Shown here one piece after another: positions 9,001 through 12,000 of a stretch of 64,000 nucleotides of DNA. Within the stretch, counting starts at the first letter, position 1. The number at the start of each line of letters is the position of its first letter. Origin of the DNA: Escherichia coli O157:H7 (GTDB lineage Bacteria > Pseudomonadota > Gammaproteobacteria > Enterobacterales > Enterobacteriaceae); NCBI RefSeq assembly GCF_013167455.1, contig NZ_CP038328.1. One strand, 5' to 3'. The position numbers were made by a program.

Positions 9001-12000
9001 TCATCATTAAAGCGGATAAGGACGTTGAAGACCTGCTCAAAACCCGTAGCGATCTATTTTGAGGTGATGATGAAAAGAACATTACTCATAGCTGTATGGG
9101 CCATTGGCCTGATGAGCGACAGTGCAATGGCTTTAACCCTGAACGAAGCCAGAAGTCAGGGGCGGGTAGGTGAAACGCTTAACGGTTACCTGGTGGCGCT
9201 ACAAACGGATGCCGAAACACAGGCATTAGTAAAAGATATTAATGAAGCTCGTAACCATAGTTACCAACAACTGGCAAAGCAAAATAATGTATCCACTAAA
9301 GAGATAGCCAAACTGGCTGGACAAAAGCTTGTTGCTCGCGCGAAGTCGGGGCAATATGTTCAGGGAGTTAATGGTAAATGGTTGCGCAAATAAATTATAG
9401 TTGGCTACAAAATGTATCTATTAATGTAATGATCTTTTACAGTATTTAAACTGACGTTAGCATGCTTAATTACCGTGGGTATTTCTACAAAAACCTTATA
9501 TATCCTTCCCTTAAATAACAAATCATTACCAATATATATATAATCACAAAATATATATGCAGCGTCAATGAATTATTAGTGTGTTTTTGTTTTTTGTCGT
9601 TAATTTTTAGATTGAAGTGAGTTTTTTGTGGAATATAATTCCATCAACTGTTTTTTTGTATGCTTTTACTTGCCTGATTTTAATATTGATTTTGTGAATT
9701 ATATAAGCATTTCTTTACTGCTTATTTCACTATGAATATTTACTACGATTTATCTTCAAATTCTGCATGGCTTGTTACGCACGGTCTAGATCTAAGGAAT
9801 TTTATATGCAAAGGAAAAAATTATTGTCTGTTTGTGTTGCCATGGCGTTAAGTAGCCAGACATGGGCTGCGGATACTTCAATACCCGACTCAACCGAAAA
9901 AACACGTAAGTCCAGTAAGATAACATGTCCGGCAAATATTCATTCCCTGAGCAAAGAGCAGCTAGAAAATTTATCCGCGGAGTGCAGAGAAAATAAAGAT
10001 AGTGCAGTTTTACCATGGGCAGCTGCAGGTCTTGCTGCAGTAGCTACGGGAATTGCTATATATACCTTAAGTGACGATGACAATCACCACCATAATAACT
10101 CCCCAGTTCCGGATGATGGCGGTGATACGCCTGTTCCGCCAGACGACGGCGGTGATACGCCAGTTCCGGATGATGGCGGTGATACGCCTGTTCCGCCAGA
10201 CGACGGCGGTGATACGCCAGTTCCGCCTGATGACGGCGGTGATACGCCGGTTCCGCCAGATGACGGCGGTGATACGCCAGTTCCGCCAGACGATGGTGGC
10301 GATACCCCGGTTAAACACAATCCTGTCGTCTATAAAAATGGCGTAACTTGGGATCAGGATGCAAAAACTGTCAAAATTCGCGAAACTACCTTTACCTACA
10401 GCCAAAATGCCGATGGGAGCTACACCTTAACGGCGCCTGAGGGCAAGGAGACGATAGTTAAGTCCTGGACAGTCCATGACGACAGCAACACCGTTGTCTT
10501 TGATGGCGTAAATACCTCAGGTGGCATCACCTGGAGTTACGACGATGATGGACTCATCCACATCACTAAAGAGGCCGGCGTCGTTGTTGACGGCACAACC
10601 GGGAATGCGATTGAGTTTGGTAACGCGATCATCACCGATCAGGGCGGCAACACGGCGCTGAATGGCGGTACTGTCATGACGGTTGATGGTGACAACATCT
10701 CCCTCAACAACGACGGCAAAACGACGGCCATCGGAGAAGGCTCGGTTGTCGGTATACTCACTGGCGACAATATCACCATTAACAATAATGGCGAGACGGA
10801 AGTTGATGGCGGTACCGCGGTAATCATCAATGGCGATAATACCAAGCTAAACACTGCGGGCGACTCGACCATCACCAATGGTGGTACGGGTAGCCTTATC
10901 AATGGCGATAATGCGCGGGTCGATAATCAAGGTACCATGAGCGTTGACGGAGAGAATTCCACTGGCTCGAAAATTGTCGGTGACGGTGCCACCATCAAAC
11001 AGGAAGGCGACTTATACGTAAGCGGTGGTGCGCACGGTATTGACGTTGACGGCAATGATACGTTCGTTAGCAACAAAGGTAATATTACGGTCATCGAAGA
11101 TAACTCTATTGGCATGCTGCTTGATGGTGATGGCGTCAGCGTGATCAACATGGGCGACCTCAATGTTGGTCAGGCCGCAGCGGGTGAAAATGCCATTGGC
11201 ATTCAGATCGACGGTGATAATGCGACATTTGTTAACGTTGGTGATATTTCCGCGACCAATGCCGGAACCGGTGTCAGCGTTGCTGGGGATAAAGCTAATA
11301 TTTCACTCGCGGGTGGGTTAGACGTTGGGGATTTCTCCACCGGTCTTGATGTCTCTGGCAATAATAACAACATGACGCTGGCGACTTATGAGCTGAATGT
11401 GACAGGGCAAAAAGCGACGGGTGTTAATGTTTCGGGTGATAGTAAAACCACGTCGCGTTCCTATGCGAGTTACGACGGTGCTCAGGAACACATTGCAGGT
11501 ATTGTTATTGCTGGCGATGACAATACCTTTACGCTTAATGGCGGTGTCCATTTTGTCGGTGAAAAAAATGTCATGGATGATGGCTCAAAACCATCAGCTT
11601 CTCGACGTGGTATCGGAGACACACCGCTTATTAACGTTGATGGGCATTCCCCGGTCTACCTGAATGGTGAGTCAACCATCAGCGGCGAGTTCCCGCTGGG
11701 GTTCGAAAATCTCATTCAGTTGAGCCATGGCGCGGAGCTGGAGATTGGCGCTGACGCAACGTTTGATATGAGTGATGTGGATTCTTTCACTTATTATTAT
11801 CGTGTAGCGTTATCCACCATTAGTATTGATTCTGGTGCGAAGGCGACAAACAACGGTGAAGTGGAACTGAAAAATATCGGTTTTGCGGCTGCCTGGAATA
11901 AAGATTCAACGGTAATCAATAACGGATCCATTGGCCTGGCGATGTACGATTTTGGTACCGACCCGGCACCAAAAGTCTTTGATGTTGAATACGGTGGGAT

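What the first reader, a model, noticed from the sequence alone, without database searches (positions are those of the whole stretch)
9394..9805. Long, very AT-rich regulatory region upstream of ydbA
About 410 bp of intergenic DNA contains runs such as ATATATATATAATCACAAAATATATATGC and many A/T tracts. This is typical of curved, H-NS-bound silencer regions in front of horizontally acquired adhesin genes, which suggests ydbA is transcriptionally silenced under laboratory conditions.
Basis: inference. Interest (0 to 1): 0.35.

Follow-up and report, generated by a model that had tools for sequence, protein, structure and literature searches.

The report
AT-rich promoter region of broken ydbA
This is the ordinary, very AT-rich 412-bp spacer in front of the ydbA/BigA-type surface-protein gene of E. 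coli O157:H7; it is probably kept silent by the nucleoid protein H-NS, and the gene behind it is already broken by a stop codon in this strain.

Summary
Window 9394-9805 is exactly the ydbL-ydbA intergenic region: 412 bp, 26.9% G+C, the most AT-rich stretch of that length in the 64-kb window.

The window is E. coli O157:H7. The downstream gene is a BigA/YdbA-family autotransporter (Sakai ECs2006/ECs2007).

H-NS silencing is the best explanation, but it is inferred, not shown.
- **For:** extreme AT content over about 530 bp.
- **For:** four ydbA upstream regions with little or no shared sequence (58% identity at best) are all 330-412 bp long and 23-30% G+C.
- **For:** the K-12 counterpart is a published H-NS-bound "promoter island".
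- **For:** a published EDL933 TSS table lists no start site for this gene in eight lab conditions.
- **Against special design:** predicted curvature, TpA steps and promoter-like sites are no higher than base composition alone gives.
- **"Horizontally acquired" holds only partly:** spacer plus ydbA are absent from E. albertii and E. marmotae at this locus, but the gene has host-like G+C, no mobility genes were seen in the fetched loci, and there are no plasmid relatives.

Verdict: an ordinary new example of a known kind, of low interest.

The parts
9070..9393 (+). ydbL (DUF1318), last gene of ydbH-ynbE-ydbL. This is the divergent O157-type allele.
   Evidence: Annotation; Pfam PF07027; 77% nucleotide identity to K-12 ydbL.
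9394..9805 (.). The finding: the 412-bp ydbL-ydbA intergenic region, G+C 26.9%. It is the putative H-NS-silenced promoter region.
   Evidence: No Rfam match. No stable RNA structure. No intrinsic terminator on the + strand.
9532..9560 (.). It contains TATAAT at 9539-9544, which exists only in the O157:H7-type sequences compared (window, PV15-279); A30, TB06051 and Santai have TGTAAT.
9564..9588. The only long conserved block of the spacer, GTCAATGAATTATTAGTGTGTTTTT. It is a candidate protein-binding site about 45-70 bp upstream of the candidate -10.
   Evidence: At least 13 of 15 identities against the orthologous spacer of loci L012-L014, which is otherwise 58% identical.
9612..9639 (+). Best candidate sigma-70 promoter: -35 TTGAAG (9612-9617), 16-bp spacer, -10 TATAAT (9634-9639). 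The predicted TSS is near 9646, giving a leader of about 160 nt.
   Evidence: Consensus scan, 10 of 12 matches. GAATATAATT at 9631-9640 is invariant in the diverged ortholog. No experimental TSS is known.
9651..9657 (.). T7 tract, polymorphic between strains (T6, T7 or T8). It lies downstream of the candidate -10, so it does not change promoter spacing.
9793..9808 (+). Ribosome-binding site AAGGA and the ATG start of ydbA. It is conserved in all four allele types compared.
9806..12685 (+). ydbA N-terminal fragment (959 codons): signal peptide, Pro-rich repeats, BigA_N domain and beta-helix passenger. It ends at the amber codon TAG 12683-12685.
   Evidence: The codon is CAG in strains A30, TB06051 and Santai.
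10103..10312 (+). Tandem 30-nt repeat encoding PPDDGGDTPV. Copy number varies between strains.
12686..15364 (+). In-frame continuation of ydbA, annotated as a separate ORF from GTG 12905. It holds the BigA beta-sandwich and the autotransporter beta-barrel.
9398..15531 (.). Segment (spacer plus ydbA plus most of the ydbA-pdxI spacer) that is missing in E. albertii and E. marmotae. In those species ydbL is followed directly by pdxI.
15386..15416 (+). Hairpin ACCGCAAC-N10-GTTGCGGT followed by a T-run after the ydbA stop. It is the likely ydbA terminator.
   Evidence: Read directly from the sequence.

Best explanation
The 412-bp spacer is the promoter and leader region of the ydbA/BigA-type autotransporter gene of the O157:H7 haplotype. 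Its extreme AT content makes it a target for H-NS (and StpA), which coats a stretch of about 0.5 kb. That coat occludes a weak sigma-70 promoter, so ydbA is not transcribed in laboratory culture. The best promoter candidate is TTGAAG-16-TATAAT at 9612-9639, with a TSS near 9646. Transcripts reading out of ydbH-ynbE-ydbL find no intrinsic terminator and probably end by Rho-dependent termination in the same region. In this strain the target gene is already inactivated by an amber codon, so the region is a relic control region of a decaying gene. Shown: the composition, the gene identity, the pseudogene status, the conservation pattern, and the absence of a listed TSS. Inferred: H-NS occupancy, the promoter position and the mode of termination.
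For: It is the lowest-G+C 412-bp stretch in 64 kb, and G+C stays below 40% over 9328-9860. The ordinary spacer at the same locus in E. albertii and E. marmotae has 36-40% G+C. Four ydbA upstream regions with little or no shared sequence all keep the same length and composition: O157 412 bp at 26.9%; loci L012-L014 406 bp at 23.4%; K-12 330 bp at 25.2%; Pseudocitrobacter faecalis 390 bp at 30%. The K-12 paaY/ydbA spacer is one of 78 'promoter islands' and is H-NS-bound in the Kahramanoglou and Oshima ChIP data (PMC3661553). The EDL933 Cappable-seq gene-TSS table (4 media x 2 growth phases) has TSSs for ydbH, ynbE, pdxI and ydbD but none for the ydbA N-terminal ORF (PMC10469882; coordinates checked). 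The -10 of the candidate promoter is invariant in an ortholog that is otherwise 58% identical. There is no Rfam family, structured RNA or terminator to give another role.
Against: No H-NS occupancy or hns-mutant data for this sequence could be read here. H-NS ChIP-chip for strain Sakai exists (PMC4764244), but its region list is not held. Curvature, TpA steps, promoter-like sites and matches to the H-NS 10-mer are explained by base composition alone. The missing TSS has two caveats: only the gene-TSS table covers this coordinate range in the stored supplements, and the ORF may not have counted as an annotated gene in the 2017 annotation. The spacer diverges about as fast as third codon positions (58% against 54-78%), so most of it is under no sequence constraint.
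Confidence: 0.6

Rival explanations
1. It is a neutral spacer. The region is unconstrained DNA that has drifted to high AT content. ydbA is silent simply because its promoter is weak or decayed, like the gene itself. Any H-NS binding is incidental and not needed for silence.
For: Divergence equals that of synonymous sites (58% against 54-78%). No feature exceeds what composition predicts. The gene is a pseudogene.
Against: Four independent versions keep 23-30% G+C and 330-412 bp, far below the 36-40% of ordinary spacers at the same locus. A 25-bp block and the -10 are conserved. Intact alleles with the same spacer exist.
Confidence: 0.25
2. It is a specifically regulated promoter. A dedicated activator or anti-silencer binds the conserved block 9564-9588 and switches ydbA on in an unknown niche. 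H-NS is only the background repressor.
For: The only long conserved block sits 45-70 bp upstream of the conserved -10, a typical activator position. It contains a partial IHF-like core, TCAA-N4-TTA (read from the sequence; the consensus is from memory).
Against: The block is conserved between only two lineages. It is not found in the K-12 or Pseudocitrobacter versions. No regulator is known or encoded nearby.
Confidence: 0.1
3. The spacer hides a small gene or a small RNA.
For: Several ORFs of 22-39 codons exist.
Against: There is no Rfam match. Folding z-scores are +0.9 and +0.3. There is no TSS in the stored tables. The Sakai intergenic small-gene supplements have no entry for ECs2005/2006. 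The 58% identity with indels would destroy any ORF.
Confidence: 0.03

Closest known systems
K-12 paaY/ydbA 'promoter island' (Panyukov and Ozoline 2013, PMC3661553), H-NS-bound in ChIP data
   Same: It holds the same position directly upstream of ydbA. Length and composition are similar (330 bp at 25.2% G+C against 412 bp at 26.9%). The downstream gene has the same architecture and is also inactivated (by IS2 and IS30 in K-12, by an amber codon here).
   Different: The sequences do not align apart from the RBS and start. The upstream neighbour is paaY/ynbG in K-12 and ydbL here, because O157 lacks the 19-kb fea-tynA-paa cluster. H-NS binding is shown only for K-12. Promoter-site density here is not above shuffles.
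H-NS-silenced cryptic adhesin promoters of E. coli, such as those of other autotransporter and fimbrial operons (general knowledge)
   Same: An AT-rich upstream region, a surface-adhesin-type gene, and no expression in laboratory culture.
   Different: Derepression in an hns mutant has not been shown for this locus. The coding region itself has host-like G+C, so any H-NS patch would be limited to about 0.5 kb.
Salmonella BigA autotransporter adhesin (NCBIfam NF033178)
   Same: The downstream gene shares the BigA_N, BigA beta-sandwich and autotransporter domains.
   Different: The scores of 252 and 817 bits are far below the 3400-bit cutoff of the BigA model. The gene is split. The gene is a YdbA/BigA-family relative, not BigA itself.

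Membership tests
H-NS-bound silenced region | AT content far above the genome average over several hundred bp | tested here: met
   26.9% G+C over 412 bp; below 40% over 9328-9860; the lowest in the 64-kb window.
H-NS-bound silenced region | H-NS occupancy in vivo (ChIP) | not testable with these tools
   Sakai H-NS ChIP-chip exists (PMC4764244) but its region list is not held. The K-12 counterpart is bound.
H-NS-bound silenced region | Derepression in an hns mutant | not testable with these tools
   No data were found for ECs2006 or ydbA in EHEC.
H-NS-bound silenced region | Little or no transcription in wild-type laboratory culture | tested here: inconclusive
   No gene TSS is listed for the ORF in 8 conditions. 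But only one stored table covers the region, and the annotation status of the ORF at that time is unknown.
H-NS-bound silenced region | Intrinsic curvature or high-affinity H-NS motif beyond what composition gives | tested here: not met
   Mean curvature 11.6 against 11.0 +/- 1.4 in shuffles. There are 7 matches to the 10-mer with at most 2 mismatches and only one with 1 mismatch. TpA count equals expectation.
Promoter island | Exceptionally high density of promoter-like sites over at least 300 bp | tested here: inconclusive
   A simple consensus scan found 6 sites against 4.1 +/- 2.0 in shuffles. The original PlatProm criterion could not be run.
BigA/YdbA autotransporter (downstream gene) | BigA_N domain, BigA beta-sandwich and autotransporter beta-barrel | tested here: met
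   PF25784 at 2.8e-33, PF25783 at 4.6e-24, PF03797 at 8.6e-18.
BigA/YdbA autotransporter (downstream gene) | Intact reading frame | tested here: not met
   TAG at 12683-12685, where intact alleles have CAG.
Horizontally acquired island | Presence/absence polymorphism against sister species at the same locus | tested here: met
   9398-15531 is absent in E. albertii and E. marmotae. The O157-type junction is in 374 of 5426 E. coli genomes.
Horizontally acquired island | Atypical composition of the cargo gene, mobility genes, or plasmid/phage relatives | tested here: not met
   ORF G+C is 49.1% and 54.5%. No integrase or IS genes appear among the genes annotated or called in the fetched O157, E. 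albertii and E. marmotae loci. There are no plasmid relatives. A tRNA search and a border-repeat search were not run, and the phage collection was not searched.

The most novel reading that the evidence does not exclude
Every ydbA/bigA allele carries a 330-412-bp leader of 23-30% G+C that is conserved in composition and length but not in sequence. This would mean selection acts on the physical silencing property itself. The conserved 25-bp block 9564-9588 would then be the docking site of an unknown anti-silencer that turns this cryptic adhesin on in a natural niche.
Probability: 0.12. Interest if true: 0.35.

Novelty: new member of a known kind. Interest (0 to 1): 0.12.

Why it matters
It matters little. 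It adds one more example of an AT-rich, probably H-NS-covered promoter region in front of a cryptic E. coli autotransporter. In O157:H7 the gene is a pseudogene, so no adhesin is expected even if the promoter fires. Its modest value is as a clean comparison set: four versions of one regulatory region with little or no shared sequence, useful for asking whether silencing selects for composition rather than sequence. It also serves as a marker of the O157-type ydbL-ydbA haplotype.

Tried and rejected
- **Rfam:** a scan of 8500-10500 at E <= 1 found nothing.
- **RNA folding:** the region after ydbL and the putative leader fold no better than shuffles.
- **Terminator:** the scan found no intrinsic terminator after ydbL on the + strand.
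- **Curvature:** my own implementation of the Bolshoy-Trifonov wedge model, with parameters recalled from memory, gave no excess over shuffles.
- **H-NS 10-mer TCGWTWAATT:** matches are about fourfold denser than the window average, but all but one have 2 mismatches, so this does not discriminate.
- **Homology to K-12:** I looked for similarity between the O157 spacer and the K-12 ydbL-feaR and paaY-ydbA spacers. Only the RBS and start align. A 60% alignment over 268 nt under lenient scoring is not trustworthy in such AT-rich DNA.
- **Genome-contig scan:** a scan with the passenger domain returned only two loci.
- **Plasmid search:** the only hit was a mislabelled chromosome.
- **Literature:** searches for ydbA with H-NS or O157, for H-NS ChIP in EHEC, and for locus tags gave no locus-level H-NS data for EHEC.
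- **Landstorfer 2014 supplements:** the full expression tables were cut before the Z23xx genes. Z2325 is listed as never transcribed, but I could not map it.
- **Sakai small-gene supplements:** they have no entry for this spacer.

Full report
**What the window is.** The 601 bases around the finding are 100% identical to E. coli O157:H7 and O55:H7 chromosomes. They occur in 374 of 5426 complete E. coli genomes, 308 of them at 99% identity or more. The gene order is ldhA, ydbH, ynbE, ydbL (9070-9393), the spacer (9394-9805), a split ydbA (9806-12685 and 12905-15364), pdxI and ydbD.

**The observation.** The coordinates are exact. The ydbL stop is at 9391-9393 and the ydbA ATG at 9806, preceded by AAGGA. 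The quoted run lies at 9532-9560.
- The spacer is 412 bp with 26.9% G+C, against 49.2% for the window.
- Only 0.07% of 412-bp windows are as low, and all of them overlap this locus.
- G+C stays below 40% from 9328 to 9860.

So the AT-richness is real and extreme.
- TpA steps number 53, against 53.4 +/- 4.6 in shuffles.
- Predicted curvature averages 11.6, against 11.0 +/- 1.4 in shuffles (wedge parameters recalled from memory).
- Sigma-70-like sites number 6, against 4.1 +/- 2.0.
- Matches to the H-NS 10-mer are denser than the window average, but almost all carry two mismatches.

**The downstream gene.** ORF1 has the BigA_N domain. ORF2 has the BigA beta-sandwich and an autotransporter barrel.
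- Ogura et al. 2007 list the two ORFs as ECs2006 'BigA-like' and ECs2007 'BigB-like'. They class them as backbone, absent from K-12, and present only in O157 among the EHEC strains tested (PMC2323221).
- The two ORFs are in the same frame and are separated by TAG at 12683-12685. Strains A30, TB06051 and Santai have CAG there, and A30 and TB06051 encode intact proteins of 1962 and 1961 aa behind the same spacer.
- So ydbA is a nonsense pseudogene in O157:H7.

**Genomic context.** In K-12 the 19-kb feaR-feaB-tynA-paa cluster lies between ydbL and ydbA. O157 lacks it.
- O157 differs from K-12 by 11-24% from about 8400 through ydbL. The spacer and passenger do not align. The barrel region is 71-95% identical, and identity returns to 97-99% at about 15500.
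- The N-terminal fragments of the two YdbA proteins share 33% identity and the same architecture.
- The spacer and the O157-type passenger are inherited together: 374 and 371 genomes.
- In E. albertii and E. marmotae, ydbL is followed directly by pdxI. Homology stops at 9394/9397 and resumes at 15532. Their spacer has 36-40% G+C. Spacer plus ydbA is therefore an indel within the genus.
- The coding G+C is 49-54.5%. No mobility genes appear among the genes of the fetched loci, and there are no plasmid relatives. 'Horizontally acquired' is thus only partly supported.

**Comparative anatomy of the spacer.** Contigs carrying a YdbL 91% identical to the O157 allele (named 'MULTISPECIES: Escherichia' by NCBI; loci L012-L014) hold an orthologous spacer of 406 bp with 23.4% G+C.
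- It is only 58% identical to the O157 spacer. That is about the divergence of third codon positions in the flanking genes, 54-78%.
- What is conserved is a 25-bp block (9564-9588), GAATATAATT at 9631-9640, and the RBS and start.
- GAATATAATT holds the -10 of the best predicted promoter, TTGAAG-16-TATAAT at 9612-9639. That makes it my candidate ydbA promoter, with a TSS near 9646.
- The K-12 spacer (330 bp, 25.2% G+C) and the Pseudocitrobacter faecalis spacer (390 bp, 30% G+C) do not align with it or with each other beyond the start region.
- Four versions with little or no shared sequence therefore keep the same length and composition. This is the strongest internal argument that AT-richness itself is maintained.

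**External evidence.**
- The K-12 paaY/ydbA spacer is one of 78 'promoter islands'. It is marked as H-NS-bound in the Kahramanoglou and Oshima data sets (PMC3661553).
- K-12 ydbA transcripts rise in an rpoZ mutant together with other silent genes (PMC5811629).
- In EDL933 Cappable-seq (four media, two growth phases, in triplicate) the gene-TSS table lists TSSs for ydbH, ynbE, pdxI and ydbD. It also lists a weak one at 2108530 upstream of ORF2, in two condition columns. It lists none for ORF1 or ydbL.
- No TSS with coordinates 2111600-2112199 occurs in the stored supplements (PMC10469882; coordinate map verified). Two caveats apply: only that table covers this region in the stored text, and ORF1 may not have counted as an annotated gene at that time.
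- H-NS and StpA ChIP-chip for strain Sakai exists (PMC4764244), but the list of bound regions is not available to me.

**Alternatives for the spacer.** There is no Rfam family. Neither the region after ydbL nor the putative leader has a stable RNA structure. There is no intrinsic terminator on the + strand. The small ORFs are not conserved, and the Sakai intergenic small-gene supplements have no entry.

**Conclusion.** The spacer is most likely an H-NS-type silenced promoter and leader region of a cryptic, and here broken, BigA/YdbA autotransporter gene (confidence about 0.6). The main rival is that it is simply unconstrained AT-drifted DNA with a weak promoter (about 0.25). A minor rival is a dedicated regulator acting at the conserved block (about 0.1). 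It is an ordinary new example of a well-known kind of region, so interest is low.

Noticed in passing
window ~8400-15500: This is a divergent haplotype block relative to K-12. The ydbH 3' end, ynbE and ydbL are 76-89% identical, the passenger does not align, and the 19-kb fea-tynA-paa cluster is absent. O157-type YdbL is 90-91% identical to YdbL named 'MULTISPECIES: Escherichia' and E. ruysiae YdbL, and 81-82% to E. albertii and E. marmotae. It is only 71-72% identical to the common E. coli allele, about as far as Citrobacter (67-71%). This suggests the K-12-type allele, not the O157 one, may be the imported version.
   Followed up: partly
window 10103-10312 and 11436: A Pro-rich 30-nt tandem repeat (PPDDGGDTPV, 6.6 copies) varies in copy number between strains. 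The window also has a 156-bp in-frame deletion at 11436 relative to EDL933 and PV15-279.
   Followed up: partly
window 12683-12685: A CAG-to-TAG nonsense mutation splits ydbA in the O157:H7-type sequences compared. Strains A30 and TB06051 keep the gene intact.
   Followed up: yes
window 9423-9427, 9541, 9651-9657: Small differences between the O157:H7-type sequences (window, PV15-279) and A30, TB06051 and Santai: a 5-bp TAATG duplication; G to A making a perfect TATAAT at 9539-9544; and a T6/T7/T8 length polymorphism.
   Followed up: partly
window ~12787 (EDL933 2108530): Cappable-seq lists a weak TSS inside the pseudogene, 119 nt upstream of ORF2, in two condition columns.
   Followed up: no
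window ~28500-30000: This is the second most AT-rich stretch of the window (31-33% G+C). In EDL933 it corresponds to four hypothetical genes between hrpA and ydcF. From memory of the K-12 gene order, not checked here, hrpA lies next to ydcF in K-12.
   Followed up: no
L002 (strain CUWW06): In one genome an IS1 insertion truncates the spacer after about 320 bp and has deleted ydbA, pdxI and part of ydbD.
   Followed up: no
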